DNA of 64,000 nt from Candidatus Forterrea multitransposorum CG_2015-17_Forterrea_25_41 (GCA_009392915.1 CP045477.1:256001-320000); one strand, 5' to 3'; shown: positions 34,464-49,604, counted from the first letter of the stretch. Made by a program: numbers and translations. The notes: generated by a model not told the origin, from the letters alone.

Positions 34464-34823
34464 GTGTTTATTTTGGATCAAGAAGATTTTATAATGGAAG
34501 AAGAAAATTTAGAAGAAAAAGATTCTTCAGAAGATGAAGAAAAAGTTTCAAAAGTTAGAAAATTAAGTAAGAACAGAAGACAAAGAAGACTTAAGGATGA
34601 AATTGTACATAATTTTATACCTCTTCACACTATTGCTGATGAAAAAGATTTAGCAGAGCTTTCTTTAAAGAATATATTTGTTGAAAAACTTCCTTTAATT
34701 TTAATTACTGATTCTGCTTTAAGACATTTAGAAGTTAAAGTAGGCGATGTCATTAAAATAAAAAGAAAAAATGAAATCATTGGGGATGTTTATTATTATA
34801 GAAGGGTTGTAGCTGATGAATAA
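34464..34823 (+). CDS. rpoH: DNA-directed RNA polymerase subunit H (Rpb5 homolog) with a ~45-aa charged N-terminal extension. The start may be the GTG at 34464 or the ATG at 34494.
   Basis: C-terminal 75 aa (HNFIPLHTIADEKDLAELSLKNIFVEKLPLILITDSALRHLEVKVGDVIKIKRKNEIIGDVYYYRRVV) match the RpoH fold signature. Sits immediately upstream of rpoB2, as in archaeal RNAP operons. Confidence 0.8.
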   Translation: MFILDQEDFIMEEENLEEKDSSEDEEKVSKVRKLSKNRRQRRLKDEIVHNFIPLHTIADEKDLAELSLKNIFVEKLPLILITDSALRHLEVKVGDVIKIKRKNEIIGDVYYYRRVVADE

Positions 34824-34885: not shown

Positions 34886-36340
34886 ATGGATAATTGGCCA
34901 TTAATTGAATCTTATTATAAAACTGCAGGACCTATAGATCAAATTTTAAAATCTTTTGATCAATTTATTGAGGAGAAAATTCCTGAAATTGTTGAAGAAT
35001 ATTCAGATGTTGAATGTAATAACAATGTTAGAATTAAACTTGAAAATGTAGAAATTTTTAAACCTGAAATTGTTGAAGCAGACAGAAGTGCAAGATTAAG
35101 ACTTACACCAATGGAAGCAAGACAAAGAAATATTAATTATGCAGGTGCTATTTATTTAGATATTAAACTTTACAGAAAAGATGTTTTAATTGATGAAAAA
35201 AGAACATATGTTGGTGAAGTTCCTATTTTAGTAAAATCAAAATACTGTAACCTTAATGGTCTTTCAGAAGAAGATTTAATTGAGCAAGGAGAAGATCCTT
35301 TAGATTTTGGTGGTTATTTTATAATTAATGGTTCTGAGAAAGCTTTAATTACTCAAGAAGTTTTAGCACTTGATAGAATTTTAATTAGTGAAACTTCAGG
35401 TGTTGTTAAAGCACAAGTAATCTCTGTTAAAGGAGCTTTTAAAGGTAAAGTTAAAGTTGAAAGAAATTTAGAAGGATTAATGTATATTTCTTTTCCATCT
35501 TCTCCAAGAAAATTAGCTCTTGTTGAACTTTTAAATGCCTTAGGTATTATAAAAGAAAAAGATATTGTTGATCTTTTCTCTGATGAAAAAGTTATAAATA
35601 ATGAAATATTATTAAATATTGATAAAATTGGATGTACAACAGAGCAAGAAGCTTTAGATAAAATTGGAAAAGCAGTTGCTCCTTCTCAAACACAATCCTA
35701 TAGATTAAGAAGAGCACAAGAAGTTATTGATTCTTTCCTTTTACCACACATTGGTCAAGATAAAAAAGATAGAGCTGCAAAGGCTTTCTATTTAGTAACA
35801 ATGACAACAAAAATCATTGAAAAAGTCTATAAGTTAAGAGAAGACGAAGATAAAGATCACTACTCAAACAAAAGACTTGAACTTTCTGGAAAATTAATGG
35901 AAAATTTATTTAGATATTCTTTTAAACATTTTGTAAATGATTTAAAATTCCAGATTGATAGAACAATTTCAAGACATAGAAAATTAAATATTACAACAGT
36001 AATTAGACCAGATGCAATTTCTGATAGAATCAGATTTGCTGTAAGTACAGGAACTTGGGTTGCAAATGTTACTGGTGTTTGTACTTTCATGGATAGAATG
36101 AATTTTATAGCTCCATTAACTAACCTTAGAAAAGTTAAATCAACTCTTGATTCTCAAAGAGAGCTTTATGAAGCAAGAGATGTACATGGAACTCACTGGG
36201 GAAGATTATGTCCAGTTGAAACTCCTGATGGTCCTAATTGTGGTTTATCTAAAAACCTTTCTATTCTTTCAAGAATTACAACTGATGTAAGAAGTGAAAG
36301 TATATTAAAAACAATAGATATTGAAGAAATTAAATTGTGA
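34886..36340 (+). CDS. rpoB2: DNA-directed RNA polymerase subunit B'' (N-terminal half of the split B subunit).
   Basis: Rpb2 N-terminal homology (protrusion and lobe region). Followed 6 nt later by the B' half. Confidence 0.9.
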   Translation: MDNWPLIESYYKTAGPIDQILKSFDQFIEEKIPEIVEEYSDVECNNNVRIKLENVEIFKPEIVEADRSARLRLTPMEARQRNINYAGAIYLDIKLYRKDVLIDEKRTYVGEVPILVKSKYCNLNGLSEEDLIEQGEDPLDFGGYFIINGSEKALITQEVLALDRILISETSGVVKAQVISVKGAFKGKVKVERNLEGLMYISFPSSPRKLALVELLNALGIIKEKDIVDLFSDEKVINNEILLNIDKIGCTTEQEALDKIGKAVAPSQTQSYRLRRAQEVIDSFLLPHIGQDKKDRAAKAFYLVTMTTKIIEKVYKLREDEDKDHYSNKRLELSGKLMENLFRYSFKHFVNDLKFQIDRTISRHRKLNITTVIRPDAISDRIRFAVSTGTWVANVTGVCTFMDRMNFIAPLTNLRKVKSTLDSQRELYEARDVHGTHWGRLCPVETPDGPNCGLSKNLSILSRITTDVRSESILKTIDIEEIKL

Positions 36341-36346
36341 AGACTT

Positions 36347-38164
36347 ATGCCTATTAATAAAAGTAAAATATATATAAATGGAAGTTTAGTTGGATTTCAT
36401 AACAATCCACTAAAATTAAAGCAAGAGCTTTTAAAAAAGAGAAGAAAAGGAGAAGTTGATGACCAAGTAAACATTGCTTTTAATCAAGAGACAAATGAAA
36501 TCTACATCAGTACTGATAGTGGAAGAGTTCAAAGGCCTTTGATTATTGTTGAAAATGGAAAATCAAAATTATCTGCTGATCTTGTAAAAGATATAAAAGA
36601 CCAAAAAATAGTTTGGGATGATCTTGTAAAAGATGGTGTTTTAGAGTATTTAGATGCTGAAGAAGAAGAAAATGCATTAGTTGCTTTAGATGAAAAAGAA
36701 TTAACTCCAGATCATACTCACTTAGAGATTTCTGGAACTGCTATTTTTAGTGTTATTTCATCAATGATTCCATTTATAAATCACAACATGGCTGGTAAAG
36801 CTATTCACGGTGCTAAAGTTTTCAAACAAGGTGTTGGTATTCCTTCTGCAAATTACAGAAATAGATTTGATACTGAAATGCATGTTCTTTATTATCCTCA
36901 AAGAACATTAGTAACTACAAGAACAGAAGAAATGATTCAATCTTATAGAAGACCAATGTCTCAAAATGCAGTTGTTGCTATTATGCCTTTTAAAGGATAT
37001 AATATGACTGATGCTTTAATAATTAATAAAGGTGCAATTGAAAGAGGAGTTGGAAGATCTTCATACTATAGAACTTATTCTGCTCAAGAAAACAGATATC
37101 CTTCAGGACAAGCAGATGAATTTATTGTCCCTGATGAAACAATTGTTGGATATAGAGGAGATGAAGTTTATAAAAATTTAGGTGCAGATGGAATTGCAAA
37201 TGTTGAATCTTATGTTGAAGAAGGTGGAGTTGTTATTGGTATGTCTTCCCCTCCAAGATTTGTTGAAGAAATCTCTGAGTATGGTGTTGTTTCTGAAGAA
37301 AGAAGAGAATCTTCTGTAACTTCTAGAAGACACTTAAAAGGTTATATTGACAAAGTTATGTTAACTCAAACTGTTGGTGGTGTTAAAATTTGTAAAATTA
37401 AAGTTAGATCAGACTTTATCCCACAGACAGGAGATAAATTTTGTTCAAATCACGGACAAAAAGGTGTTATTGGTGCTGTTATAAACGAAGAAGATATGCC
37501 TTTTACATCAAATGGTATGAAACCTGATTTTTTATTAAACCCTCACTCAATTCCTTCAAGAATGACTATTGGTCACTTACTTGAAACTATTGGTGGAAAA
37601 GTTGCTTCTTTAAAAGGAGAAATTATAGATGGTACTCCTTTCTATATTGATAAAGATAATCTTTTAGAAACTTTAAAAGCATATGGTTTTAGAGAAGATG
37701 GTAAAGAAACATTTTATGATGGAACTACTGGAGAAAAAATGGAAATGCCAATTTTTGTAGGTCCAGTTTCATTTAAAAGATTATATCACGTTGTTACAAA
37801 TAAAATACAATCAAGAGATACAGGTTCTATACAATTATTAACCAGACAACCAACCGAAGGTAAAGAAAAAGGTGGTGGACTAAGATTTGGTGAAATGGAA
37901 GGAGATGCTTTAATTGGTCATGGATCAGCTATGCTTTTACATGAAAAATTAATTGATTCTGCTGATGAACTTGAAGTCCATGTATGTTCTGATTGTGGAA
38001 TGATTGCAATTGATGATAAAATTAGAAATAGAAAATATTGTCCTATTTGTACAAATGGTACAATTGAAAAAATAAAAATTAGTTATGGTTTTAAGCTTCT
38101 TTTAGATGAACTTAAAGCTTTAGGTGTGTATCCAAAACTTGAAATTGGAGACAAAATAAATTAA
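36347..38164 (+). CDS. rpoB1: DNA-directed RNA polymerase subunit B' (C-terminal half of the split B subunit).
   Basis: Rpb2 C-terminal motifs (GEMEGDALIGHGSAMLL). C-terminal Zn ribbon CSDCGM...CPICTN. Confidence 0.9.
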   Translation: MPINKSKIYINGSLVGFHNNPLKLKQELLKKRRKGEVDDQVNIAFNQETNEIYISTDSGRVQRPLIIVENGKSKLSADLVKDIKDQKIVWDDLVKDGVLEYLDAEEEENALVALDEKELTPDHTHLEISGTAIFSVISSMIPFINHNMAGKAIHGAKVFKQGVGIPSANYRNRFDTEMHVLYYPQRTLVTTRTEEMIQSYRRPMSQNAVVAIMPFKGYNMTDALIINKGAIERGVGRSSYYRTYSAQENRYPSGQADEFIVPDETIVGYRGDEVYKNLGADGIANVESYVEEGGVVIGMSSPPRFVEEISEYGVVSEERRESSVTSRRHLKGYIDKVMLTQTVGGVKICKIKVRSDFIPQTGDKFCSNHGQKGVIGAVINEEDMPFTSNGMKPDFLLNPHSIPSRMTIGHLLETIGGKVASLKGEIIDGTPFYIDKDNLLETLKAYGFREDGKETFYDGTTGEKMEMPIFVGPVSFKRLYHVVTNKIQSRDTGSIQLLTRQPTEGKEKGGGLRFGEMEGDALIGHGSAMLLHEKLIDSADELEVHVCSDCGMIAIDDKIRNRKYCPICTNGTIEKIKISYGFKLLLDELKALGVYPKLEIGDKIN

Positions 38165-38187: not shown

Positions 38188-40776
38188 ATGAGTGGTGTTA
38201 AAAAAATAAAATCAATTGAGTTTAATATATTAAGCCCAGAAGTTATTAGAAAGATGTCTGGTGTAGAAATTTCTAGATCAGATACTTATGATAAAGATGG
38301 ATATCCAATAGAAAGAGGGGTAATGGATCTTCACTTAGGAGTAATTTCTCCAGGTTTAAGATGTAAGACTTGTGGTCATGGTATGAAAGATTGTCCTGGT
38401 CACTTTGGACATATTGAACTTACAAGACCTGTAATGCATCCTAAGTTTACTGAAAAAATATATCCTATACTTCAATCTAGTTGTAAAGAATGTGGTAAAC
38501 TTTTAATTGAAGATGAAAATAGAACTGAGCTTATGAGATATGCTCAAGATCCTGACAAACTTGCAAAATTCATAATTGATACTTCAAAAACTTTAAAAAA
38601 ATGTCCTCATTGTCAAGCAGAAATTTCAAAAGTTTCTTTAGATAAACCAACTAATTTCTTTGTAGATGGTGAAAGATTATATCCTTCTGATATTTTAGAT
38701 TGGATTTTAAAAATAGAAGATAAAGATTTATTTTTATTTGGATATTCTGAAAAATTAAAACCACAATGGTTTATTTTAAATGTTCTTCCAGTTCCTCCAG
38801 TTTCAATGAGACCTTCTCTTTCTCTTGAAAATGTTGTTACTGCTGAAAATGATTTAACTCACATGCTTTTAAACATTGTAAGAATTAATTCAAGACTTCA
38901 TGAAAACATGAATGCTGGTGCTCCACAAATAATTATTGAAGACTTGTGGGATCTTTTACAATACAATGTTACAACTTATTTTGATAATAATACAGCAGGT
39001 GTACCTCCTGCAAAACACAGATCTGGAAGAGCATTAAATACTTTAGCTCAAAGATTAAAAGGTAAAAAAGGAAGATTTAGATATAACTTAATTGGAAAAA
39101 GAGTTAATTCTGCATCAAGATCTACAATATCACCTTCTACAGAAGTTGCAATTGATGAACTTGGAATTCCTCAAGAAGTTGCAGATACTTTAACAGTTTC
39201 TGAAAGAGTAACTTCTTGGAATATTTCAAAGATTAAAGATTTTATTATGCAAGATAAAGTAAAATATTTAATATCTAAGAATAATAGAAAAAGAATGATT
39301 ACAGAATCAAACAGACAAGAAATAATAGATGCTTTAGAAGAAGGAACTATTGCTAAAAGAAAAATGGTTGATGGAGATTTAGTAATTTTTAACAGACAAC
39401 CAACACTTCATAGATCTTCAATTATGGGACACAAAGTAAAAGTTTTACCTGGTAAAACCTTTAGACTAAATCCAATTTCATGTGCTCCTTACAATGCGGA
39501 CTTTGATGGTGATGAAATGCAAATTCACGCTCCACAAAGTGAATCTTCTATTGCTGAGATTAAAAATCTTTTAATGGTTAATAATCATGTTTTAAGTATT
39601 AGACATGGTAAACCAATTATTACACCTACAGAAGACTTAATTTCTGGTGGATTTTTACTTACAAAACAAGATACTGAATTTACTAAAAAAGAAGCCATGG
39701 AAATGCTTTATTCAATAGGTGTTACAGAACTTCCTGCAGCTGATAGAGGAAGAGGACTTTATTCTGGTAAGTTAATTTTTAGTCAAATCTTACCAAATGA
39801 TCTTAATTTAGAATATGAAAATAAAATGTATACTATTATTAAGAAAATAAAAGGAAAAGTTACTAAAAAAGATATTGAAAAATACGATTGTTACTTTAAA
39901 ATTGAAAAAGGAAAATTAGTTTCTGGAGTCTTTGATGAAAGAGCAACTTCTCCTAAAAACTTAATTGATGTTATTGTAAGACATTATCCTACAGATTTTA
40001 TTTCTGAGTTTTATTATAAATTATCTAAATTAGTTTTTTATGCTTTATCAAAGAAAGGTTTAACTATTGCTTTAGATGAATATAAAACAACTAAAGAATT
40101 ACAAGTTGAAATTGATCAAAAAATAAAAGAATTAATTGTAAGTACAAATGCAATTGTTAAAAAATATGAAAATAAAACATTACCTTTAGTATCTGGTAAA
40201 AATCTAGATGAAACTTTTGAAATTGAAATGATGACAGCAGCATCTAATGTTAAGGATTATATTTCTGACAAAATACTTCTTGAAAAATTCAACGATATGT
40301 ATGATGATAGAAAAGTTTCAAACAATAACACAACTATGCTTTCAAGTGTAGGTGGGTCTAGAGGAAAAGTTTTAAATGTTGTAAACATTATTGGTCTTTG
40401 GGGACAAGTAACTGTTAGAACAGGAAGAGCTAAAAATGGTTTTAAAAATAGACTTTTAAGTTCTAATGTTTTAGGTTCAAATGCATTAATGGATTATGGT
40501 TTTGTTAAAAATAATTTCTATAATGGTATGACCCCTAAAGAATATTTCATCCACTCAATTGGTGGAAGACAAGGTGAAATTGACACTGGTGTTTCTACAA
40601 AAGTATCTGGATATCTTTATAGAAGACTTTCAAATGCTTTAAAAGATCTTGTTGTACAAGATGATTTATCTGTAAAGACAGCAGATGGACAAGTAATACA
40701 ATTTACTTATGGTGATGATGGTCTTTCCCCTGATAAAGCTTATCTTGGAAAGAATATTAATTTCTTCCACGAGTAG
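38188..40776 (+). CDS. rpoA1: DNA-directed RNA polymerase subunit A'.
   Basis: N-terminal Zn-binding site CKTCGHGMKDCPGHFGHIEL. Catalytic NADFDGDEMQIH motif. Confidence 0.95.
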   Translation: MSGVKKIKSIEFNILSPEVIRKMSGVEISRSDTYDKDGYPIERGVMDLHLGVISPGLRCKTCGHGMKDCPGHFGHIELTRPVMHPKFTEKIYPILQSSCKECGKLLIEDENRTELMRYAQDPDKLAKFIIDTSKTLKKCPHCQAEISKVSLDKPTNFFVDGERLYPSDILDWILKIEDKDLFLFGYSEKLKPQWFILNVLPVPPVSMRPSLSLENVVTAENDLTHMLLNIVRINSRLHENMNAGAPQIIIEDLWDLLQYNVTTYFDNNTAGVPPAKHRSGRALNTLAQRLKGKKGRFRYNLIGKRVNSASRSTISPSTEVAIDELGIPQEVADTLTVSERVTSWNISKIKDFIMQDKVKYLISKNNRKRMITESNRQEIIDALEEGTIAKRKMVDGDLVIFNRQPTLHRSSIMGHKVKVLPGKTFRLNPISCAPYNADFDGDEMQIHAPQSESSIAEIKNLLMVNNHVLSIRHGKPIITPTEDLISGGFLLTKQDTEFTKKEAMEMLYSIGVTELPAADRGRGLYSGKLIFSQILPNDLNLEYENKMYTIIKKIKGKVTKKDIEKYDCYFKIEKGKLVSGVFDERATSPKNLIDVIVRHYPTDFISEFYYKLSKLVFYALSKKGLTIALDEYKTTKELQVEIDQKIKELIVSTNAIVKKYENKTLPLVSGKNLDETFEIEMMTAASNVKDYISDKILLEKFNDMYDDRKVSNNNTTMLSSVGGSRGKVLNVVNIIGLWGQVTVRTGRAKNGFKNRLLSSNVLGSNALMDYGFVKNNFYNGMTPKEYFIHSIGGRQGEIDTGVSTKVSGYLYRRLSNALKDLVVQDDLSVKTADGQVIQFTYGDDGLSPDKAYLGKNINFFHE

Positions 40777-40823
40777 AAATGTTATGTTTGTTGGACAATT
40801 TAAAATATTAAATGTGAAATATT

Positions 40824-41990
40824 ATGAGAGAACTTCCAAAATTAGTTTTAGAGAGAATTGAAAATTATTCTAAAAAGAAAAGTTTTAGTGATGCAAAACA
40901 AAAAAAATTAGTTGAAATTGTAACTAGAAAATACAATGATTCTTTAGTAACTCCTGGAGATGCTATGGGTCTTATTGCTGCTCAATCAATAGGTGAACCT
41001 GGAACACAGTTAACTTTAAGAACAAAGCACTATGCTGGATCTTTAGAAGTATCTGTTGGTCAAGGAATTCAAAGAGTAATTGAAATTGTTGATGGAAGAT
41101 TATCTTCAAAGTTTCCTTCTATGAAGCTTTATTTAAAGAAAGATGTTTTTAATACTGATAAAAAAATAAATAAATTTGCAAAAAGTTTAATAGATATTAA
41201 AGTTGGAGCAATTGGAGAATTCCAAGAAGATTTTTTAAACAGAACTGTTTCTTTTGTCCTAGATCATGAAAAAATTAATGAACTTGATATTGATAAAGAA
41301 GAAGTTATGACACTTATCTATGATAAGATAATTGATGTTTATGTTTCAAAAAGATTTACTCCAAATAAAAATGGTATAAATTTTACTTTTGATAAAGATA
41401 CACCTCTCTTCAATATTAGAAAAGCTATTATTAAATGGAATAAAATACCTTTATTTGGTATAAAAAATATAGAATTAACTGTTGTTTCAGAAGAGAATGG
41501 AGAAAAAGTAATTATTACTAAAGGTTCTAATCTTTCTGAAATTTTAAAAGTTGAAGAACTTGATACTCAAAGAAGTTACACAAATGATATTTTAGAAGTA
41601 AATAAAGTTTTTGGTATTGAAGCTGCAAGAGAATCAATAATAAGAGAACTTTATAATACTTTTGATAGTAATGGAATTGATATTAACAAAAGACATATTG
41701 CAATTTTAGCAGATCTTATGTGCTTTAATGGAAAAGTTAAAGGAATTGTAAGAACTGGAATTACAGGAGAAAAATCAAGTCCATTTGCAAGAGCTTCTTT
41801 TGAAGAAACTGTTAAACATATTCTTTCAGCTGCATTTGATGGTGAGAGAGAAAACTTCAAAGGAATTATTGAAAACCTTATTGTAGGACAACCAATACTT
41901 GCAGGAACTGGTAGAGTAAAACTTACTCTTGATCCTAAAAATCTTAAAAAAATGATAAAAAAACAAGAGAGTTTAATTGAAGATAAATAA
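40824..41990 (+). CDS. rpoA2: DNA-directed RNA polymerase subunit A''.
   Basis: Homology to the C-terminal third of the Rpb1 trigger-loop region (GDAMGLIAAQSIGEPGTQLTLRTKH). Follows rpoA1. Confidence 0.9.
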   Translation: MRELPKLVLERIENYSKKKSFSDAKQKKLVEIVTRKYNDSLVTPGDAMGLIAAQSIGEPGTQLTLRTKHYAGSLEVSVGQGIQRVIEIVDGRLSSKFPSMKLYLKKDVFNTDKKINKFAKSLIDIKVGAIGEFQEDFLNRTVSFVLDHEKINELDIDKEEVMTLIYDKIIDVYVSKRFTPNKNGINFTFDKDTPLFNIRKAIIKWNKIPLFGIKNIELTVVSEENGEKVIITKGSNLSEILKVEELDTQRSYTNDILEVNKVFGIEAARESIIRELYNTFDSNGIDINKRHIAILADLMCFNGKVKGIVRTGITGEKSSPFARASFEETVKHILSAAFDGERENFKGIIENLIVGQPILAGTGRVKLTLDPKNLKKMIKKQESLIEDK

Positions 41991-42072: not shown

Positions 42073-42576
42073 GTGATTAATATGGATTGGAATAGATTTA
42101 ATACACAATTAAGAAGTGCAGTTGATACAGGAAAAGTAATTTATGGAACTAAAGAGACTTTAAGAGAATGTCTTGTTGGTGAACCTAAATTAGTTGTTGT
42201 TTCAAAGAATATAAAAAACATTACAAAAAAAGAAATTGAACATTTCTCAAACAAACTTAAGATTCATTTTATTGAATATCCAGAAAATGGTTTTGAATTA
42301 GGTTCTGTTTGTGGAAAACCTTTTAATATTTCTTCACTTGTAATTAAAGATTTAGGTCAATCATCAATTGTTGATGTTATTAACTTAAAAGAAGTTGTTG
42401 AAGAAAAAATGACTAAGTCTAAAATTAAAGCTGAAAAAAGACAAGTTAAAGAAGAAAAGAAAGCTGAAAAATCTAAAGCAAAGAAATTAAAAGAAATACA
42501 AAAAGAAGAAGATGATGAAAAGTCTATTAAAGAAGACGCAGCTTTAAAAGGAATTTTAAAAATTAAAAAGAAATAA
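42073..42576 (+). CDS. rpl30e: Ribosomal protein L30e with a ~60-aa Lys/Glu-rich C-terminal extension.
   Basis: L30e core sequence KVIYGTKETLRECLVGEPKLVVVSKNIKNITKKEIEHFSNKLKIHFIEYPENGFELGSVCGKPFNISSLVIKDLG. Sits at its canonical position after rpoA2. Confidence 0.85.
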   Translation: MINMDWNRFNTQLRSAVDTGKVIYGTKETLRECLVGEPKLVVVSKNIKNITKKEIEHFSNKLKIHFIEYPENGFELGSVCGKPFNISSLVIKDLGQSSIVDVINLKEVVEEKMTKSKIKAEKRQVKEEKKAEKSKAKKLKEIQKEEDDEKSIKEDAALKGILKIKKK

Positions 42577-42580
42577 TTAA

Positions 42581-42841
42581 ATGGCTAGAAAAAATATAAA
42601 TAATTTTAACAGGAAAAAAAAAGTTGTAAAAGAAGCTATACCAGTTTCTGAGCAAAAAGTTAAAAAAATAAAACCTGGTAAAATTACTGCTGAAATTTCT
42701 ACTTTAATGAGTTTTGGTATTTATGTTAATAATCCAAAGAAAGCAGAAATGCTTTTAGCGGAAATATTTAAGGAAGCAAAAATAAGCGGCGAATCTATAT
42801 CTCTTGTTGCTAAGAGATTTAGAAATAAATTAAAAAAATAA
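42581..42841 (+). CDS. Hypothetical 86-aa basic protein occupying the position where nusA normally sits in archaeal rpo operons. No KH-domain GxxG motif was recognised.
   Basis: ORF sits between rpl30e and rps12. Sequence MARKNINNFNRKKKVVKEAIPVSEQKVKKIKPGKITAEISTLMSFGIYVNNPKKAEMLLAEIFKEAKISGESISLVAKRFRNKLKK. Confidence 0.4.
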   Translation: MARKNINNFNRKKKVVKEAIPVSEQKVKKIKPGKITAEISTLMSFGIYVNNPKKAEMLLAEIFKEAKISGESISLVAKRFRNKLKK

Positions 42842-42868: not shown

Positions 42869-43294
42869 ATGGCAAACGGAGAATTTGCAGCAAAAAAGAA
42901 TATCAAAGATAGAAAAAAATGGAATAAAAAAGATCCTAGAGAAAAAAGAAGCATTAAAGTTAAAGCTAAGAAAGGACTTTTAAGAGGTGCTCCTCAAGCA
43001 AAAGGTATAGTTCTTGAGAAAAAAGGAATTACTGCAAGACAGCCAAACTCTGGTATTAGAAAATGTGTTAGAGTTAAGCTTATTAAAAATGGTAAGGAAT
43101 TAACTGCTCTTGCACCTAAAGATAAAGCTATTAAATTTATTGAGATACACGACCAAGTAACTGTTGAAGGTATTGGTGGACGTAAAGGAGGTCCAGTTGG
43201 TGATCTTTGGGGTGTAAAATACAAAGTTATCAAAGTTAATGGACAATCTCTTGAAATGCTTAGAACAGGTAAAAAAGAGAAATCTAAAAAATAG
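42869..43294 (+). CDS. rps12: Ribosomal protein S12 (uS12).
   Basis: Core sequence [46 protein letters not shown]...[22 protein letters not shown]. Confidence 0.9.
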
Positions 43295-43308: not shown

Positions 43309-43920
43309 TTGGTGTTAAATATGATGATTTTAGGTAAATGGGCAACAAATGATGTTGTTTGTAAAGATTTAGGTATTGCAAGATATGTAAGTTTTAAAGA
43401 AAAAGAAATTCCTCATACTTTTGGAGTTGCTAAAAGTACTCCTACAGATAAAGCAAAAGTTAATGTTGTTGAAAGACTTATCAATAAAATGATGAGATCT
43501 GGTCAAGGTAAAAAGAAATTATCTGGAAAGTTTATTAGAGGAAAAAATGCTTGTGGTAAAAAAGATCAAATGATAAGAGTTGTTGATGAAGCTTTTGATC
43601 AAGTAAATAAAATTACAAAGCAAAACCCAATACAAGTTTTAGTTGAAGCTATTGAAAATTCTGCTCCTAGAGAAGATATTATCAAACTTCAAAGAGGAGG
43701 AATTAATTATAATCAAGCAGTTGATATTGCTCCTATACAAAGACTTGATGAAGCTTTAAAGAATTTAGCTCTTGCACCTTTCAAGGCAACTTTTAAAACT
43801 AAAAAAGACATGGCTTCAGCTCTTGCAGAAGAACTTATGGCAGCAGCTAAGAATGATCAAAAGAGTTATGGTGTAAAAAGAAAAGATGAAATTGAAAGAA
43901 TTGCACAAGGTTCTAGATAG
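43309..43920 (+). CDS. rps7: Ribosomal protein S7 (uS7).
   Basis: uS7 family pattern (LINKMMRSGQGKKK..., ILVEAIENSAPREDI, NYNQAVDIAP). Follows rps12. Confidence 0.85.
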   Translation: MVLNMMILGKWATNDVVCKDLGIARYVSFKEKEIPHTFGVAKSTPTDKAKVNVVERLINKMMRSGQGKKKLSGKFIRGKNACGKKDQMIRVVDEAFDQVNKITKQNPIQVLVEAIENSAPREDIIKLQRGGINYNQAVDIAPIQRLDEALKNLALAPFKATFKTKKDMASALAEELMAAAKNDQKSYGVKRKDEIERIAQGSR

Positions 43921-44031: not shown

Positions 44032-44787
44032 ATGACTAGATTTAAAAATACTTTAAAAAAGTTATTACCAGATAGACTTAGATATGGAAAAGGCTATGTT
44101 CTTGAAAATAAAATGTCTAAAGTTTCAACTTCTTATAATATTAAAGAATATAATATAAATTATTTAAAAGAAGTTAATAATTTTTATAAAACATTTAGAC
44201 TAGATTCTAAAAAATATTCTCTTTCTAAAACTAATTTTAAAGCTTTAAGAAATAAAGACTCAAGAGAGCTTGTTGTTAGAGGAGTTTATTCTCTTTTTAA
44301 ATCTTTTAATGTTTCTGATGAATTAATTTTAAAAAGATTTCCAAATAAAACAAAAAAAGAAAGAGAGCTTATTAAAAATAAGTTATATAATCAGAAATAT
44401 CCTAAACTTGCAAGTGAAGTTATTGAAAGTATTAATTTATTTTTAAAAACTAGAAAACAAGAAATGCAACCAAGATACTTAGAAAAATTTGCAGAAATTT
44501 TTTATGAACTTAATCTTTTAAAAGAAAAAGAAAATTTAAGAATTGAAGGAAATAAATTTTTTTTAGAAGTTTTTAATAAACTTAATGAAATCACAAAACA
44601 AGAAAATAATTCTCAAAAAATAAACAATTCAACTCCTGCTTATGATTATTTATCTTCAATTTCTGGAGATTTTATTGAATTTGTAATTAGAAGTAGAAGT
44701 AATAATAAAAATAAATATGTAACTGTTAAAGAATTTAAAAAAGAACAATTTTCTTTAGATAGAATTAAAAAATATAGTGTTAGGTAA
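44032..44787 (+). CDS. Hypothetical protein (251 aa) inserted between rps7 and fusA.
   Basis: ORF with K/N-rich composition and no recognised motif. Confidence 0.4.
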   Translation: MTRFKNTLKKLLPDRLRYGKGYVLENKMSKVSTSYNIKEYNINYLKEVNNFYKTFRLDSKKYSLSKTNFKALRNKDSRELVVRGVYSLFKSFNVSDELILKRFPNKTKKERELIKNKLYNQKYPKLASEVIESINLFLKTRKQEMQPRYLEKFAEIFYELNLLKEKENLRIEGNKFFLEVFNKLNEITKQENNSQKINNSTPAYDYLSSISGDFIEFVIRSRSNNKNKYVTVKEFKKEQFSLDRIKKYSVR

Positions 44788-44821
44788 ATTTTATAATAAT
44801 TTTTAAAAGAAAAGAAAAATC

Positions 44822-45451
44822 ATGCAAAAAGATAATAACTGGGATAATATTTATTCTTCTGTAAAGAATCTTAAAAAACTTCCTTGGGTAAGAACCACAA
44901 TACCAGAGTGGTTTAAACTAATAATTAATTCTAAATGGATAGCCCCTTGTAAAACATTAGATGTTGGGTGTGGAAATGGTTATTTTTCATATTATCTTTC
45001 AAAAAAAGGCTTTAAAGTTACAGGTATTGATGTTTCAAAAGAAATTATTATTTATGCAAAAAAATCTTATCCTCAAAGTAATAATCTAAAATTTATTGTG
45101 TCTAATTTTTTTAATAAAGAAACTCTTTCTGAAAAATATAATTTTATTTTAGATATTGGACTTTTCCATAATATCTTACCAGAGAAAAGAAAAGAATTTT
45201 CAAAAAGACTTTCAGAGCTTCTTTTTGATAAAGGTAAGGTTTTAATCTTTTGTTTTGATAAAAGAGAAGGTACTTTTGAGAATAAAGAAATATACTTTAA
45301 TTCATTAATTAACATGTATTCATATCCTCTTTCAAAAGAAGAAATAATTAAAACTTTTAGTAAAGATTTTATTATTGAAAAAATAGAAGAAATAAGACAT
45401 GGTACAAATAATTATAAAAGACGTTATCTTTGTTTTTTAATTAAAAAATAA
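44822..45451 (+). CDS. Class I SAM-dependent methyltransferase (TPMT/TehB-like, small).
   Basis: Motif I LDVGCGNGYFSYYLSKKGFKVTGIDVS. Motif II/post-I region FILDIGLFHNI. N-terminal Trp-containing segment typical of TPMT-like enzymes. Confidence 0.65.
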   Translation: MQKDNNWDNIYSSVKNLKKLPWVRTTIPEWFKLIINSKWIAPCKTLDVGCGNGYFSYYLSKKGFKVTGIDVSKEIIIYAKKSYPQSNNLKFIVSNFFNKETLSEKYNFILDIGLFHNILPEKRKEFSKRLSELLFDKGKVLIFCFDKREGTFENKEIYFNSLINMYSYPLSKEEIIKTFSKDFIIEKIEEIRHGTNNYKRRYLCFLIKK

Positions 45452-45644: not shown

Positions 45645-47843
45645 ATGGGAAGAAAAGAACAAGTTGCTGAGCTTGCAGAAAAGCTTATGGCAAATACAAA
45701 AAATATTAGAAATATTGCAATTATTGCACACATTGATCATGGAAAATCTACTTTAACAGACAATTTAGTTGCAACTGCTGGTTTAATTTCAAAAGATTTA
45801 GCAGGAGAACAAAGATTCATGGATTCATATGTTTTAGAACAAGAAAGAGGAATTACAATTAATTCTGCAAACGTTTCTGTTCCATGTGATATTGATGGTG
45901 AAAAATTTTTAATAAATATTATTGATACACCAGGTCACGTTGATTTCACTGGTGATGTTATAAGAGCGATGAGAGCTGTTGATGGTGCTGTTTTAGTTGT
46001 TGATGCTGTTGAAGGTGTTATGCCACAAACAGAAACTGTATTAAGACAAGCTTTAAGAGAAAAAGTAAAACCTGTACTTTTTATTAATAAAGTTGATAGA
46101 TTAATTACAGAAATGCATGTAACTCCAGAAGATATGCAAAAGAAATTTGTTAAAGTTGTAATGGATATTAATAATTTAATTGCAAAAAATGCTCCTGAAG
46201 AATTCAGAAAAGATTGGTTAGTAAATATTGCAGATGGTTCTGTATGTTTTGGTTCTGGTTTCCATAATTGGTCTCTTTCAGTTCCTGCTATGAAAAAATA
46301 TAATGTAACTTTTAAAGATGTTATTGAGTATGCAGAAAATGAAAAACAAAAAGAACTTGCAGATAAAATTCCAATTTCAGAAGTTTTCTTAGGAATGGTT
46401 GCAAAACATCTTCCTGATCCAAAGACTTCTCAAAAATATAGAATCCCAACTATTTGGAAAGGAGATCCTGAATCCCCAGAAGGAAAAGCAATGTCTGAAT
46501 GTAATACTACATCAGAAGAAGTTTCAATGATGGTAACTGATATTGTTTTAGATAAACATGCAGGAGATATTGCTTCTGGAAGAATTTATTCTGGATCAAT
46601 TAAAAAAGGAATGGATTTAAAAGTTTTAGGAACAGATAGAACAACTAAAGTTCAATATGTTGGTATTTATTTAGGTCCTGAAAGAGTTATTTTAGATGAA
46701 GTAAAATCTGGAAATATTGCTGCAATTATTGGACTTAAAGAAGTTTATGCTGGTCAAACAATTGCAAGTCACGATATTGTTCCATTTGAAGATTTCATGT
46801 CAGATGTTGAACCAGTAATGACTGTTTCTGTTGAAGCTAAAAATTCAAAAGATCTTCCAAGATTAATTCAAGTTATTCATAATATAACTAAAGAAGATCC
46901 AAACATAAAAGCTGAATTAAATCAAGATACAGGAGAACATCTTTTATCAGGTATGGGTGAACTTCACTTAGAAATTACACAATACAAGATTGAAAAAGAT
47001 AATAATATTCCAATAACTGTTTCACCACCAATTGTTGTTTACTATGAAACAACAACACAAGAATCTCCAGTTGTTGAAGGAAAGACTCCAAACAAACACA
47101 ATAAATTTAAAGTTAGAGTTGAACCAATCTCTTCAGAAATGCTTGAAAAAATTAGAAAAATTAAGTTTACTGGAAAGATAAGACCTAACAAAGATTTAGA
47201 TATTATTAAAAAATTACAAGAAGCAGGATTTGATGTTGACGAATCAAAGAATGTTTGGGCAATCAATAATCATTCAATTTTAATTAATAGAACAAAAGGA
47301 ATACAAAACTTAAATGAAGTTAGAGAACTTATAATTGAAGGATTTACAGATGCTACAAATGAAGGTCCTGTTGCTAAAGAAAAAGTATCTGGAATTATTG
47401 TTTCTCTTGAAGATGCAACATTACACGAAGATGCAATCCACAGAGGTCCTGCACAAGTTCTTCCTGCAATAACAAGAGCAATATATGCTGGTGTACTTGC
47501 TGGTAACTATGTTCTTTTAGAACCAAAACAAAGTTTAACTGTTTCAGTTCCTCAAGATTTTATGGGTTCTGTTTCTAAAGTTTTATCTTCAAGAAGAGCA
47601 CAAATTGAAGATATTAAAACAGAAGGAGATTCTTCAATTTTTATTAGTAAGATTCCTGTAAAATCAATGATTGGTTTCTCACAAGAGATGAGAGGAGAAA
47701 CACAAGGTAGAGCTGTTTGGACTGCTGAATATTTTGGTTATGAACAACTTCCAAAAAGTATGCTTAAAGACACAATCATAGATATTAGAAAAAGAAAAGG
47801 TATGGATCCTGAACCAAAACCTGCTGAGTTTTTCATGGATTAA
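45645..47843 (+). CDS. fusA: Translation elongation factor 2 (aEF-2).
   Basis: G-domain motifs AHIDHGKST, DTPGHVDF, NKVDR. Domain IV diphthamide-site His in AIHRGPAQ. SD-like AAAGGTGAAAG upstream. Confidence 0.95.
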   Translation: MGRKEQVAELAEKLMANTKNIRNIAIIAHIDHGKSTLTDNLVATAGLISKDLAGEQRFMDSYVLEQERGITINSANVSVPCDIDGEKFLINIIDTPGHVDFTGDVIRAMRAVDGAVLVVDAVEGVMPQTETVLRQALREKVKPVLFINKVDRLITEMHVTPEDMQKKFVKVVMDINNLIAKNAPEEFRKDWLVNIADGSVCFGSGFHNWSLSVPAMKKYNVTFKDVIEYAENEKQKELADKIPISEVFLGMVAKHLPDPKTSQKYRIPTIWKGDPESPEGKAMSECNTTSEEVSMMVTDIVLDKHAGDIASGRIYSGSIKKGMDLKVLGTDRTTKVQYVGIYLGPERVILDEVKSGNIAAIIGLKEVYAGQTIASHDIVPFEDFMSDVEPVMTVSVEAKNSKDLPRLIQVIHNITKEDPNIKAELNQDTGEHLLSGMGELHLEITQYKIEKDNNIPITVSPPIVVYYETTTQESPVVEGKTPNKHNKFKVRVEPISSEMLEKIRKIKFTGKIRPNKDLDIIKKLQEAGFDVDESKNVWAINNHSILINRTKGIQNLNEVRELIIEGFTDATNEGPVAKEKVSGIIVSLEDATLHEDAIHRGPAQVLPAITRAIYAGVLAGNYVLLEPKQSLTVSVPQDFMGSVSKVLSSRRAQIEDIKTEGDSSIFISKIPVKSMIGFSQEMRGETQGRAVWTAEYFGYEQLPKSMLKDTIIDIRKRKGMDPEPKPAEFFMD

Positions 47844-47872
47844 TTTTTCTTTTTCTTTTTTCTTTTATTTTT

Positions 47873-47925
47873 TTGTCCTTCTTTATATCTAGGACAAAGC
47901 TTCTTTTTTTCTTTTCTTTTTCTTT
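47873..47925 (+). terminator. Hairpin TTGTCCT-N11-AGGACAA followed by a T-rich run after fusA.
   Basis: Read directly. AGCTTCTTTTTTTCTTTTCTTTTTC follows the stem. Confidence 0.5.
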
Positions 47926-48106
47926 AAAACTATTTGTTTTATAATATTCTTCAAACTTTTTCTTGTTTTATTATTTGGACAGTTTATTTTTTTTATTAAA
48001 AATAATTATTTTTAAAAAATATATAACATTTATAAATGTTTACATCTACAGTATATAATATATTTTATTATTCTGCTTTTGCAGAAAAATTGGAGGGAGA
48101 AAAAAA

Positions 48107-48346
48107 ATGGCTGTAAAAAAGAAAGTAGTTGCAAAAAAAGCACCTGCTAAAAAAGCTGTTGTTAAGAAAAAAGCACCTGTTAAAAAAGTAGTTGCTAAAA
48201 AAGCACCAGCTAAAAAAGTAGTTGCAAAAAAAGCACCTGCTAAAAAAGCTGTTGTTAAAAAAGCACCTGCTAAAAAAGTAGTTGCTAAAAAAGCACCAGC
48301 TAAAAAAGTAGTTAAAAAGAAAGCACCTGCTAAAAAGAAAAAATAG
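48107..48346 (+). CDS. Lys/Ala-rich tandem-repeat basic protein (79 aa), with about 6 copies of the KKAPAKKVVA repeat. Histone-H1-tail-like or Hc1-like candidate nucleoid protein.
   Basis: Strong SD GGAGGGAG 8 nt upstream. Protein consists almost entirely of AKKAPAKK(A/V)VV units. 30-nt periodicity at the DNA level. Confidence 0.7.
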   Translation: MAVKKKVVAKKAPAKKAVVKKKAPVKKVVAKKAPAKKVVAKKAPAKKAVVKKAPAKKVVAKKAPAKKVVKKKAPAKKKK

Positions 48347-48476
48347 GTGTCATCTTTATTTAATAACTATTTTATTTTAATAAGTCTTTTTTTATAAAAG
48401 GCTTATTTTTTCTATTTTTTTAATATTTTCTTTTAAAAAATATATTTAAATACCTTAATATCTATCTATATATATC

Positions 48477-49604
48477 ATGATTAAAAATATAACTTTATTA
48501 GGTTCAAATAATGATATTGGTATTAAGACAATTGAGTTTTTAAAAAACAATACTAATAAGTTTAAAATCTATTCTCTTTCTTATGACTCTAAGGTAGATA
48601 ATCTTGATTTTTTTATATCTCAAATAAAAGATGTTTCTCCAAAGAAAGTTTTTATACCTTTAGAAAAAGATGCTGAATATATAGAATCTAAAACTAAGGT
48701 TGAGATAATTACAGGTACTGAAAATTTTCCTGAGTTTATAAAATCAAATGAAATTGATCAAGTAATTTCTTCTTTATCAGGACTTTCAAGTGTTAAAAAA
48801 ATATTATCAACTATTTATGAGTTTAAAGATATTACTTTACTTAATACATCTCCTTTTCTATATTGTGGAAGAATAATTACAAATGAAGTTAAATCAAAAG
48901 GAGTAAATTTTAATATTTTTTCATATCCAGTTTATTCTTTAGATTTTATTTTAAAATCTTCAAATATTAATTTTATTAAAAATATTAATTTATTTACAAA
49001 ACAAAAAAACAAAAAAGAAAAAATAACTATTAATGATTATAAAGATTTTGGAAGTTATCTTAAAGCATATTATTCTGAAAATAATATAAGACTTGTAAAT
49101 GATATGTTTATTATTTATTATTTATATAATATTCCAATAGATAATTTTAATTTTTATGAACAATCAGAAAGAATAATAAATATTGAAATAAAATTTTTAA
49201 ATGGTACAAGTGTTTTCTTTAAAGCAAATCTAGATATAGATAGTATTTTTAATTATTATTTTTTAGATAATGAAAAAATAGTTGAAAATAAAGAAAAAGA
49301 TCTTGATAAAATATCTTTTTCATATAAAAAAATAGATCCAACTAAAGAAAAGTTTTTAAGTTTAGGTATAGAAACTTTAAAAAAAGGTGGTTCTTTTCCA
49401 ATAATCTATTATATAACAATTGAAACATTACTTTATTATATTTATAAAAGAAAAATTAAAGAAAACATAGATATTTATAAAATTGTTAAAGAATTTTTAG
49501 AAGACAAAACACTTTATGATAAATTCCCTGATTTAAGTTCTGTTTATGCTATTGATAATAAGATAAATGAAAAAATCAAAAATAAATTTAATATTAAAAA
49601 CTAA
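48477..49604 (+). CDS. Dxr (1-deoxy-D-xylulose-5-phosphate reductoisomerase)-fold homolog with degenerate NADPH-binding and catalytic residues. Probable non-catalytic or repurposed Dxr-like protein.
   Basis: N-terminal 160 aa are colinear with bacterial Dxr. ITLLGSNNDIG matches ILGSTGSIG. DQVISSLSGLSSVKKILSTI matches DxVxAIVGAAGLxPTLAAI. KDITLLNTSPFLYCGRII matches KTILLANKESLVTCGRLF. IFSYPVYSLDFIL matches LLPVDSEHNAIFQSL. Spacing is conserved (LLNTSP at aa 121-126). The comparison is from memory of E. coli Dxr, not a database search. Confidence 0.5.
   Translation: MIKNITLLGSNNDIGIKTIEFLKNNTNKFKIYSLSYDSKVDNLDFFISQIKDVSPKKVFIPLEKDAEYIESKTKVEIITGTENFPEFIKSNEIDQVISSLSGLSSVKKILSTIYEFKDITLLNTSPFLYCGRIITNEVKSKGVNFNIFSYPVYSLDFILKSSNINFIKNINLFTKQKNKKEKITINDYKDFGSYLKAYYSENNIRLVNDMFIIYYLYNIPIDNFNFYEQSERIINIEIKFLNGTSVFFKANLDIDSIFNYYFLDNEKIVENKEKDLDKISFSYKKIDPTKEKFLSLGIETLKKGGSFPIIYYITIETLLYYIYKRKIKENIDIYKIVKEFLEDKTLYDKFPDLSSVYAIDNKINEKIKNKFNIKN

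What the first reader, a model, noticed from the sequence alone, without database searches (positions are those of the whole stretch)
42581..42841. nusA slot of the archaeal rpo operon occupied by an unrecognisable 86-aa basic protein
The gene order rpoH-rpoB2-rpoB1-rpoA1-rpoA2-rpl30e-X-rps12-rps7 matches the conserved archaeal cluster, in which X is NusA (about 140 aa, two KH domains). Here X is 86 aa with no GxxG KH signature. It is either an extremely reduced NusA, a replacement protein, or nusA has been lost or moved. The adjacent L30e carries an unusual ~60-aa K/E-rich tail (42073..42576). Together these point to lineage-specific remodelling of this otherwise ultra-conserved operon.
Basis: partly seen in the sequence, partly recalled or inferred. 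Interest (0 to 1): 0.5.

Follow-up and report, generated by a model that had tools for sequence, protein, structure and literature searches.

The report
Orphan basic protein replaces lost nusA
In one clade of tiny DPANN archaea (Iainarchaeota), the otherwise near-universal nusA gene is gone from its place in the RNA-polymerase/ribosomal-protein operon; ribosomal protein L30e grew a long charged helical tail at the same evolutionary step, and a later sub-branch carries a new, fast-evolving 86-residue basic protein in that place that is not a shrunken NusA.

Summary
The window carries rpoH-rpoB''-rpoB'-rpoA'-rpoA''-L30e-X-S12-S7. X (42581-42841, 86 aa) has no GxxG motif and no Pfam, NCBIfam or PDB match.

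X is a real gene but not NusA:
- Profile-profile comparison with archaeal NusA gives 0.15% probability.
- AlphaFold2 predicts a disordered Lys-rich arm (aa 1-35) and a three-helix bundle (aa 37-85). A KH domain is alpha/beta.
- Searches of 1.8 and 5.8 billion proteins found only 16 clusters (most 81-96 aa). Every context I examined is L30e-X-S12.
- dN/dS is 0.10-0.32 in close pairs.

Seventeen species-level relatives form one clade with no NusA in the slot and a 60-90 aa K/E-rich L30e tail ending in ..KIKKK. All sister Iainarchaeota keep short L30e plus NusA. Basal NusA-less lineages have an empty slot, so X arose after nusA left and did not displace it.

X is patchy and has frameshift alleles at its A9 tract. 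My best guess, by inference only, is a lineage-specific RNA-binding accessory protein translationally coupled to L30e.

Whether nusA sits elsewhere in these genomes could not be settled. Partial searches were negative.

The parts
34464..34823 (+). rpoH (RNAP subunit H/Rpb5), first gene of the cluster
   Evidence: PF01191 1.2e-13, NF007129 8.2e-15
34886..38164 (+). rpoB'' (34886-36340) and rpoB' (36347-38164), the split B subunit
   Evidence: ORFs of 484 and 605 aa. Same-length orthologues in L001/L003 carry RNA_pol_Rpb2_1-7.
38188..41990 (+). rpoA' (38188-40776) and rpoA'' (40824-41990)
   Evidence: RpoA'' is PF04998 1.7e-48. RpoA' orthologues carry Rpb1_1-5.
42082..42384 (+). Ribosomal protein L30e, globular domain (aa 1-101). 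The probable start is ATG 42082.
   Evidence: PF01248 7.4e-16, NF002172 7.8e-29. Orthologues start MDWNRF.
42385..42576 (+). Clade-specific C-terminal extension of L30e (about 63 aa). It is a K/E-rich predicted single long alpha-helix that ends in the conserved peptide ..(E/D)D..(F/L)K.I(I/L)KIKKK.
   Evidence: Present in all 16 aligned NusA-less loci, with an invariant K-I-K-K end. dN/dS 0.14-0.44, about as constrained as the L30e domain. Single-sequence AF2 gives a continuous helix 102-163, pLDDT 73-84.
42581..42841 (+). Gene X: an 86-aa orphan basic protein (pI 10.4, 22 K+R against 7 D+E) in the position normally held by nusA
   Evidence: ORF. Sixteen homologue clusters only. All contexts examined are L30e-X-S12. 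dN/dS 0.10-0.32 in close pairs.
42581..42685 (+). X N-terminal arm (aa 1-35): Lys/Arg-rich, predicted disordered, fast-evolving
   Evidence: pLDDT 58-65 and no regular secondary structure. 12 K+R against 2 D+E. dN/dS 0.5-1.2 in distant pairs.
42614..42622 (+). A9 homopolymer inside X (codons K12-K14), an indel hotspot. It is A10 (frameshift) in the L003-L008 allele. The equivalent tract is one A short in L009 compared with intact L064.
   Evidence: It is one of only five runs of 9 or more identical bases that lie inside genes in the 64-kb window.
42686..42838 (+). X C-terminal domain (aa 36-86): predicted three-helix bundle (H37-44, H52-69, H73-85), the conserved core of the family (..TPEISTL..FGI....A...L..I..EAK..G..IS.VAKR.R.K)
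   Evidence: AF2 pLDDT 79-93 over the 10-residue blocks from residue 31 on. Conservation in A5. dN/dS 0.12-0.5.
42869..43294 (+). Ribosomal protein S12, preceded by GGTGA
   Evidence: PF00164 1e-36, TIGR00982 1.2e-48
43321..43920 (+). Ribosomal protein S7 (199 aa from ATG 43321; the mechanical ORF begins at TTG 43309)
   Evidence: PF00177 1.4e-34, NF003106 8.5e-69. Orthologue calls are 199 aa.

Best explanation
**Shown**
- X is a genuine, taxonomically restricted ('orphan') protein-coding gene. It is not a NusA derivative.
- The common ancestor of one monophyletic Iainarchaeota (DPANN) clade lost nusA from the L30e-S12 interval.
- On the same branch, L30e acquired a 60-90-residue K/E-rich C-terminal extension with a conserved basic/hydrophobic end peptide, which is under purifying selection. 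A single-sequence model predicts the extension to be one long helix.
- Basal members of the clade have L30e directly followed by S12. X appears only in a sub-branch, so it arose after the loss (or has diverged beyond recognition).
- X evolves roughly 4 times faster than L30e and 14 times faster than S12 at non-synonymous sites. It has been lost or frameshifted repeatedly.

**Inferred**
- X is made from the L30e-S12-S7 transcript by translational coupling to L30e. Its start lies 4 nt after the L30e stop, and it lacks the GGTGA/GTGA motif that precedes most neighbouring genes.
- X has a disordered poly-lysine arm plus a small, very basic three-helix domain, which is the build of many small ribosomal and RNA-chaperone proteins. 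Together with its operon position, this suggests a dispensable, lineage-specific RNA-binding accessory protein of the ribosome or the nascent transcript.
For: **Not NusA**
- hhalign of X against NusA gives 0.15% probability.
- A NusA HMM against all six frames of the window finds nothing, while it scores 122-172 bits on every canonical locus.
- There is no GxxG motif (read from the sequence).
- AF2 predicts an all-alpha fold.

**A real gene**
- Full-length homologues run down to 24% identity. There are 16 clusters in 5.8e9 proteins, and 4 real hits by exhaustive HMMER over 1.84e9 representatives.
- All contexts examined are L30e-X-S12.
- dN/dS is 0.10 (L014/L139) and 0.32 (L010/L138), and 0.12-0.5 for the helical domain.
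- The exact 86-aa protein occurs in 91 index blocks, on contigs up to 687 kb.
- The chance of such an open frame is about 1e-4.

**Order of events**
- In the NJ tree of RpoA''+S12+S7, the NusA-less, tailed-L30e loci form one clade, sister to NusA-bearing Iainarchaeota.
- X is present in the window subclade and in L014.
- X is absent in L012, L013, L015-L021, L023 and L024.

**Tail under selection:** dN/dS 0.14-0.44, with an invariant C-terminal KIKK.

**Coupling and lack of SD:**

**Basic character:** pI about 10.3, net charge about +15.
Against: - The function is inferred only from composition, predicted shape and gene position. No homologue has a known function and no expression data were available.
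- X is dispensable in close relatives: L012 and L013 have none, and L022 has an unrelated ORF there.
- One widespread allele (L003-L008) is frameshifted at the A-tract, leaving only a 47-aa C-terminal ORF.
- The N-terminal arm shows dN/dS near 1 in distant comparisons.
- Gain after loss rests on a distance tree of three proteins and on parsimony. An older origin with more losses is not excluded.
Confidence: 0.6

Rival explanations
1. nusA has only moved. These genomes still encode a normal NusA at another locus, and the slot was refilled by an unrelated small gene.
For: [quoted passage not shown]
- In some Asgard genomes the cluster is dispersed (PMC10833476), and I saw Asgard-like nusA outside the operon (L092, L099, L104).
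- The full genomes of the clade could not be scanned.
Against: - No NusA or KH hit in six frames of the 64-kb window, nor in the 6-10 kb flanks of 17 clade species.
- An Iainarchaeota NusA profile search of 5.8e9 proteins returned 71 clusters that reach as far as Asgard and Korarchaeota.
- All the Iainarchaeota-like hits I checked sit in the canonical slot.
- A metagenome scan gave 64 loci, none from the metagenomes that hold these organisms.
- All of these searches have limited sensitivity, because they use word or pattern prefilters.
Confidence: 0.35
2. X, the L30e tail, or both are functional substitutes (analogues) for NusA. They would bind nascent RNA, RNAP or the ribosome in its place.
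For: - Tail gain and nusA loss coincide exactly on one branch, and the tail is under purifying selection.
- X is very basic and sits in the same transcription unit.
Against: - X is absent from most NusA-less lineages and is frameshifted in others, so it cannot be the general substitute.
- No sequence relation links the tail to NusA: hhalign is below 1%, and there is only a 10-bit K-rich hmmsearch match.
- The function of archaeal NusA is itself unclear (PMC8116511).
Confidence: 0.12
3. X is a proto-gene or a decaying ORF with no function, an accident of an A-rich intergenic spacer left by the nusA deletion.
For: - Frameshift alleles at the A-tract in two lineages.
- No SD-like motif.
- Patchy distribution, and an unrelated small ORF in the same place in L022.
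- N-terminal dN/dS around 1.
Against: - dN/dS of 0.10-0.32 over the full length in close pairs, and 0.12-0.5 for the helical domain.
- Length and architecture are conserved at dS of 0.6-1.0.
- AF2 predicts a confident fold (pLDDT about 90) from only 16 sequences.
- The intact allele is identical in many assemblies.
Confidence: 0.1
4. X is an extremely reduced NusA with a single KH domain.
For: Position only: it lies exactly where nusA lies in the sister lineages.
Against: - hhalign probability of 0.15%.
- The NusA HMM is negative in all frames.
- No GxxG motif.
- The predicted fold is three helices with no beta-strand.
- Basal clade members have an empty slot, so there is no continuity with nusA.
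Confidence: 0.02

Closest known systems
Archaeal NusA (two-KH-domain 'NusA-like transcription termination signal-binding factor'; TIGR01952, PF26594/PF07650; e.g. Aeropyrum pernix NusA, PDB 2CXC)
   Same: [quoted passage not shown] It is also a small protein that plausibly binds nucleic acid.
   Different: There is no detectable sequence or profile similarity and no GxxG motif. The predicted fold is all-alpha, not alpha/beta KH. X is 86 aa against 132-146 aa. X is restricted to a few species, while NusA is near-universal.
Small basic ribosomal or RNA-chaperone proteins built from a globular core plus a disordered Lys/Arg-rich extension (own knowledge of r-protein architecture)
   Same: Size, pI of about 10, a disordered basic arm plus a compact domain, and a gene embedded among r-protein genes and apparently translationally coupled to one.
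   Different: X matches no r-protein family in Pfam, NCBIfam or PDB. It is dispensable in close relatives and evolves far faster than true r-proteins (dN about 14 times that of S12).
ER/K-type single alpha-helix (SAH) spacers; for comparison, the flexible tail plus conserved end peptide of the archaeal stalk protein aP1 (own knowledge). This concerns the L30e tail.
   Same: A long run of alternating K/E residues predicted as one continuous helix, followed by a short, strongly conserved terminal peptide. This is the layout of a tether that presents a binding motif at a distance.
   Different: The tail is attached to L30e, which is not known to carry such an extension. The end motif (..FKxIIKIKKK) is basic and hydrophobic, unlike the aP1 end. 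The helix rests on a single-sequence AF2 model only.
Poly(A)-tract frameshifts rescued by transcriptional slippage in AT-rich reduced genomes (Buchnera/Blochmannia, Tamas et al. 2008; own knowledge)
   Same: The frameshift alleles of X lie exactly at an A9/A10 tract in a genome of 25% G+C.
   Different: No RNA data are available. The two frameshifts need corrections in opposite directions, which also fits plain mutational decay or, for L009, assembly error.

Membership tests
Archaeal NusA (TIGR01952 / PF26594 + PF07650) | Significant match to NusA/KH profiles | tested here: not met
   Pfam and NCBIfam give nothing above noise for X or for 9 family members. hhalign of the X family against 21 archaeal NusA sequences gives 0.15% probability. 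A NusA HMM over six frames finds nothing.
Archaeal NusA (TIGR01952 / PF26594 + PF07650) | GxxG loop in at least one KH domain | tested here: not met
   G33, G46 and G70 are the only glycines and none has a G at +3 (sequence). The family alignment A5 shows no conserved GxxG.
Archaeal NusA (TIGR01952 / PF26594 + PF07650) | Alpha/beta KH fold (three-stranded sheet packed on helices), two copies, about 130-145 aa | tested here: not met
Archaeal NusA (TIGR01952 / PF26594 + PF07650) | Position between rpl30e and rps12 | tested here: met
   Sister lineages have NusA exactly there.
Known ribosomal protein families | Match to an r-protein profile or a solved ribosome chain | tested here: not met
Helix-turn-helix / sigma-like three-helix DNA-binding domains | Significant structural match to an HTH domain | tested here: inconclusive
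Ribosomal protein L30e (adjacent gene) | L7Ae/L30e fold profile match over the full domain | tested here: met
   PF01248 residues 9-100 (7.4e-16). NF002172 residues 9-104, 99.8 bits against a cut-off of 77. The residues beyond about 104 are an addition to the family.
ER/K single alpha-helix (L30e tail) | Long K/E/R-rich segment forming one isolated stable helix | tested here: inconclusive
   Single-sequence AF2 gives a continuous helix 102-163 with pLDDT 73-84, while the rest of that model is poor. There is no experimental test.

The most novel reading that the evidence does not exclude
A whole clade of Iainarchaeota (at least 17 species-level genomes) has dispensed with NusA altogether. That would contradict the view that every archaeon encodes it. 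The loss would be compensated by new parts bolted onto the translation apparatus: a long single-helix tether with a conserved end peptide on ribosomal protein L30e and, in one sub-branch, the new basic three-helix protein X. Together these would take over a link between nascent RNA, RNA polymerase and the ribosome.
Probability: 0.12. Interest if true: 0.75.

Novelty: new variant of a known kind. Interest (0 to 1): 0.42.

Why it matters
The rpoH...L30e-nusA-S12-S7 cluster is among the most conserved gene orders in Archaea, and reviews state that all archaea encode NusA, whose archaeal role is still unknown.

A clean natural case would give a comparative handle on what archaeal NusA is for, and on how minimal DPANN cells rewire the interface between transcription and translation. 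This clade offers one: nusA has left the operon (and perhaps the genome), an r-protein gained a selected extension on the same branch, and an orphan gene was born in the vacated spot.

X itself is a compact example of a young, taxonomically restricted gene arising inside an ultra-conserved operon. Intact, frameshifted and lost states all occur among close relatives.

Tried and rejected
1. **X as a minimal NusA or KH protein.** Rejected by hhalign, HMM, motif and predicted fold.
2. **L30e tail as a relic of the NusA KH2 domain.** I considered this because hmmsearch aligned the tail of L013 to NusA positions 88-124 (10.4 bits) and both end in I-K-I-K-like strands. hhalign of the tail alignment against two NusA alignments gave below 1% and matched other regions, so the hit is K-rich composition.
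3. **X DNA as nusA read in another frame.** The NusA HMM is negative in all six frames.
4. **The L022 small ORFs as divergent X.** These are the 81-aa ORF in the slot and the 89-aa ORF between rpoA'' and L30e. The X HMM does not detect them.
5. **A contig carrying both X and NusA.** I suspected this because P0008 and P0034 both list a 7130-bp contig. They are different contigs from different samples.
6. **AT-rich, out-of-operon NusA loci from the metagenome scan as the clade's relocated nusA.** L092, L099, L102, L104 and L116 are 69% identical to a Promethearchaeati (Asgard) NusA and only 25% identical to Iainarchaeota NusA.
7. **Non-coding RNA in the interval.** No Rfam hit, and the folding z-score of -1.8 is not significant.
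9. **Literature on NusA in Iainarchaeota.** None found.
10. **AF2 with the locus-derived X sequences.** I used the 16 database members instead.
11. **Metagenome scan with the 10-sequence NusA alignment.** I re-ran it with 5 sequences.

Full report
**1. Observation**

The ORF listing and the raw sequence show an ATG-started 86-codon ORF at 42581-42841 on the + strand. It begins 4 nt after the stop of the upstream gene and ends 27 nt before the downstream gene.

Pfam and NCBIfam identify the neighbours:
- RpoH (34464-34823, PF01191).
- RpoA'' (40824-41990, PF04998).
- L30e (PF01248; NF002172 at 99.8 bits against a cut-off of 77).
- S12 (PF00164, TIGR00982).
- S7 (PF00177, NF003106).

The three large ORFs between rpoH and rpoA'' are rpoB'', rpoB' and rpoA'. 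This follows from the precomputed Pfam content of same-length orthologues in L001 and L003. [quoted passage not shown]

X has three glycines and none is in a GxxG arrangement. X gives no Pfam or NCBIfam hit better than E = 0.07. The L30e domain ends near residue 100 and is followed by 63 K/E-rich residues. The likely L30e start is ATG 42082, because all orthologues start MDWNRF. GTG 42073 lies inside a GTGA Shine-Dalgarno-like motif.

**2. Is X a gene?**

An 86-codon open frame at this composition (25% G+C, stop-codon probability about 0.10 per codon) has a chance probability of about 1e-4.

Homologue searches found very few relatives:
- The word-indexed search of 5.8 billion proteins found two clusters.
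- An exhaustive phmmer over 1.84 billion representatives found four real hits.
- A profile search found 16 clusters, most of them 81-96 aa and none with a Pfam domain. Three are shorter: the 47-aa frameshift allele and two C-terminally short members of 59 and 67 aa.

Identity runs down to 24% over the full length. The conserved core is ..K(E)TPEISTL..FGI....A...L..I..EAK..G..IS.VAKR.R.K.

Every genomic context I inspected is L30e(163-165 aa)-X-S12. The exact 86-aa sequence of the window occurs in 91 index blocks, on contigs up to 687,636 bp (GCA_009993905.1).

Nei-Gojobori dN/dS values:

| Comparison | dN/dS |
|---|---|
| X, close pair L014/L139 | 0.10 |
| X, close pair L010/L138 | 0.32 |
| X helical half, distant pairs within the main subfamily | 0.12-0.5 |
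| X N-terminal third, distant pairs | 0.5-1.2 |
| S12 | 0.04-0.15 |
| L30e domain | 0.23-0.5 |

No Rfam family matches the interval, and its RNA folding energy is unremarkable (z = -1.8). X is therefore a real protein-coding gene under purifying selection, but it evolves fast.

**3. Is X a NusA?**

No.
- Profile-profile comparison of the X family with 21 archaeal NusA sequences taken from the slot in related loci gives 0.15% probability.
- An HMM built from those NusAs scores 122-172 bits on every canonical locus. It finds nothing in any of the six frames of the 64-kb window or of the relatives' loci.
- AlphaFold2 with the 16-member alignment (mean pLDDT 78) predicts a disordered N-terminal 35 residues and three helices (37-44, 52-69, 73-85) with pLDDT about 90. 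There is no beta-strand, which a KH domain requires.
- A PDB sequence-profile search gives only noise.

X is strongly basic, with pI about 10.3 and about 22-27 K+R against 7-13 D+E in the full-length members.

**4. What happened to the slot?**

A scan of one genome per GTDB species with the window's S12 returned 49 archaeal loci. I read the interval upstream of S12 in each.

Loci whose S12 is at least 83% identical (L008-L024, 17 species-level genomes):
- They have no NusA.
- Their L30e is 160-194 aa, with a K/E-rich tail ending in the nearly invariant ..(E/D)D..(F/L)K.I(I/L)KIKKK.

All other Iainarchaeota (L025-L035, plus L065-L070) and the other DPANN and archaeal loci that keep the upstream cluster on the contig:
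- They have a short L30e (91-126 aa) followed by a 132-146-aa NusA.

A neighbour-joining tree of RpoA''+S12+S7 makes the NusA-less, tailed clade monophyletic and sister to NusA-bearing Iainarchaeota.

Within the clade, X is distributed as follows:
- It is present in the window's subclade (L001-L011, L064, L138) and in L014/L139.
- It is absent from L012, L013, L015-L021, L023 and L024, where L30e is followed by S12 after 20-125 nt.
- L022 has an unrelated 81-aa ORF in the slot, which the X HMM does not detect.

The most parsimonious order is:
1. nusA left the slot and the L30e tail arose on the stem of the clade.
2. X appeared later in a sub-branch.
3. X was then lost again in some lineages.

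So X did not displace nusA.

**5. The L30e tail**

Its dN/dS (0.14-0.44) is as low as that of the globular L30e domain, so it is functional. A single-sequence AF2 model predicts one continuous helix over residues 102-163 (pLDDT 73-84), although the rest of that model is poor. With its alternating K/E composition, this fits an ER/K-type single alpha-helix that presents a conserved terminal peptide. That assignment is an inference.

I tested whether the tail is a remnant of NusA, because hmmsearch aligned it weakly (10 bits) to the KH2 region. hhalign gives below 1% and aligns different regions, so the idea is not supported.

**6. Frameshift alleles**

In L003-L008 the A9 tract at window 42614-42622 is A10. 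These loci come from several assemblies made with different assemblers, possibly from the same site. The extra base puts the N-terminal 40 codons out of frame and leaves a 47-aa ORF from Met43.

In L009 the equivalent tract is one A shorter than in the intact close relative L064, and a second indel removes the stop codon.

Runs of 9 or more identical bases are rare inside genes in this window. Five lie in the 92% of the sequence that is coding and four in the 8% that is intergenic.

The two frameshifts need corrections in opposite directions. Possible explanations are mutational decay of a dispensable gene, rescue by transcriptional slippage (known from AT-rich endosymbionts; own knowledge), or, for L009, assembly error. 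I could not tell these apart.

**7. Has nusA moved elsewhere?**

The evidence so far is negative but incomplete.
- No NusA is present in the window or in the flanks of the 17 relatives. No KH domain appears in the ten unassigned 96-229-aa ORFs of the window.
- An Iainarchaeota NusA profile search of 5.8e9 proteins returned 71 clusters, reaching Asgard, Korarchaeota and Methanophagales. None has a longest-contig length equal to any contig known to carry the clade's operon, including those of 246, 268, 432, 664, 671 and 688 kb.
- The four Iainarchaeota-like hits I checked are all in the canonical slot.
- A metagenome scan gave 64 NusA loci, none from the metagenomes that hold these organisms.
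- Nearly all of those 64 loci are in a canonical context.
- The five AT-rich, out-of-context loci are Asgard-like: 69% identical to a Promethearchaeati NusA.

All these searches use word or pattern prefilters, so a divergent relocated nusA could be missed. A review states that all archaea encode at least one NusA homologue (PMC7289017). A true genome-wide loss would therefore be notable. I put it at roughly even odds.

**8. Mechanism**

What is shown: X is an orphan, basic protein with a disordered arm and a three-helix domain. It is encoded immediately after L30e without the GGTGA/GTGA motif that precedes L30e, S12, S7, rpoB'', rpoB', rpoA'' and EF-2.

What is inferred: X is translated by coupling to L30e and binds RNA as a lineage-specific, non-essential accessory of the ribosome or the nascent transcript. 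Nothing beyond composition, predicted shape and operon position supports this.

The main rivals are:
- The slot was simply refilled while nusA lives elsewhere. This is compatible with the rest of the account.
- X or the tail acts as a functional analogue of NusA.
- X is a functionless proto-gene.

**9. Verdict**

The 'reduced NusA' reading is wrong.

The picture that emerges has three parts: clade-wide departure of nusA from an ultra-conserved operon, a selected helical extension on L30e gained on the same branch, and later birth of an orphan gene in the gap. It is a new variant of a known operon, not a new kind of system. Interest is moderate. It would rise considerably if complete-genome searches show that NusA is absent altogether.

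Noticed in passing
window 44032-44787 (+): A 251-aa ORF with no Pfam or NCBIfam hit lies between S7 and the rest of the cluster, where EF-2 normally follows directly. Homologues occur only in the window's subclade (L001/L003 96-98%, L010 56%, L011 45%, L138 253 aa). It is a second lineage-specific insertion in the same operon.
   Followed up: partly
window 44787-44822; L001 12203-13153; L003 12077-13027: The close relatives L001, L003 and L004 carry a 316-aa PPDK_N-domain gene (PF01326) between the 251-aa ORF and the methyltransferase. The window has only a 34-nt gap there, so this is a recent indel between strains about 96% identical.
   Followed up: no
L137 502-909 (window equivalent about 42487-42489): One assembly (JGI 3300008003) has a TTA-to-TAA nonsense change in the L30e tail. 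It cuts L30e to 135 aa and removes the conserved KIKKK end. The surrounding sequence is otherwise identical.
   Followed up: partly
L022 4920-5189 and 5731-5976: L022, a NusA-less relative, has two other small basic ORFs: 89 aa between rpoA'' and L30e, and 81 aa in the nusA slot. The X HMM recognises neither. The spacers around L30e look like a hotspot for small lineage-specific ORFs.
   Followed up: partly
window 45645-49604: EF-2 (fusA) is followed by a DXP-reductoisomerase-like gene (PF02670 in the L001 orthologue), not by EF-1alpha and S10. The 3' part of the canonical cluster is therefore also rearranged.
   Followed up: no
L067 4509-6411; L070 4526-6414: In NusA-bearing sister Iainarchaeota, EF-2 is 916-1278 aa and carries intein domains (Intein_splicing, LAGLIDADG). 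The window's EF-2 is 732 aa and has no intein.
   Followed up: no
Alignment A6 (NusA of L025-L035): In Iainarchaeota NusA only the first KH domain keeps a GxxG loop (GKAIGKNG). The second KH has lost it, and Pfam hits to these proteins are weak or faint. NusA was thus already degenerating in the sister lineages.
   Followed up: no
L025-L035 rpoA'' (e.g. L033 3925-5214): RpoA'' of the NusA-bearing sister lineages carries a 15-40-residue Lys-rich N-terminal extension (400-429 aa, against 387-393 aa in most of the NusA-less clade).
   Followed up: no
L092, L099, L102, L104, L116: AT-rich (26-27% G+C) metagenome contigs carry a 158-160-aa NusA outside any rpo/r-protein context, next to a response-regulator receiver gene in L104. 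They are 69% identical to a Promethearchaeati (Asgard) NusA.
   Followed up: yes
window 2848-10248 and 13134-19577 (+): Two giant ORFs of 2466 and 2147 aa lie in the first third of the window. I did not analyse them.
   Followed up: no
L013 5870-5995: In L013 the 125-nt spacer between L30e and S12 is T-rich, with a direct repeat (TTTTTTCTAAAG twice) and a TATA-like TTTATAATATA. This suggests a terminator and a separate promoter for S12 in that lineage.
   Followed up: no
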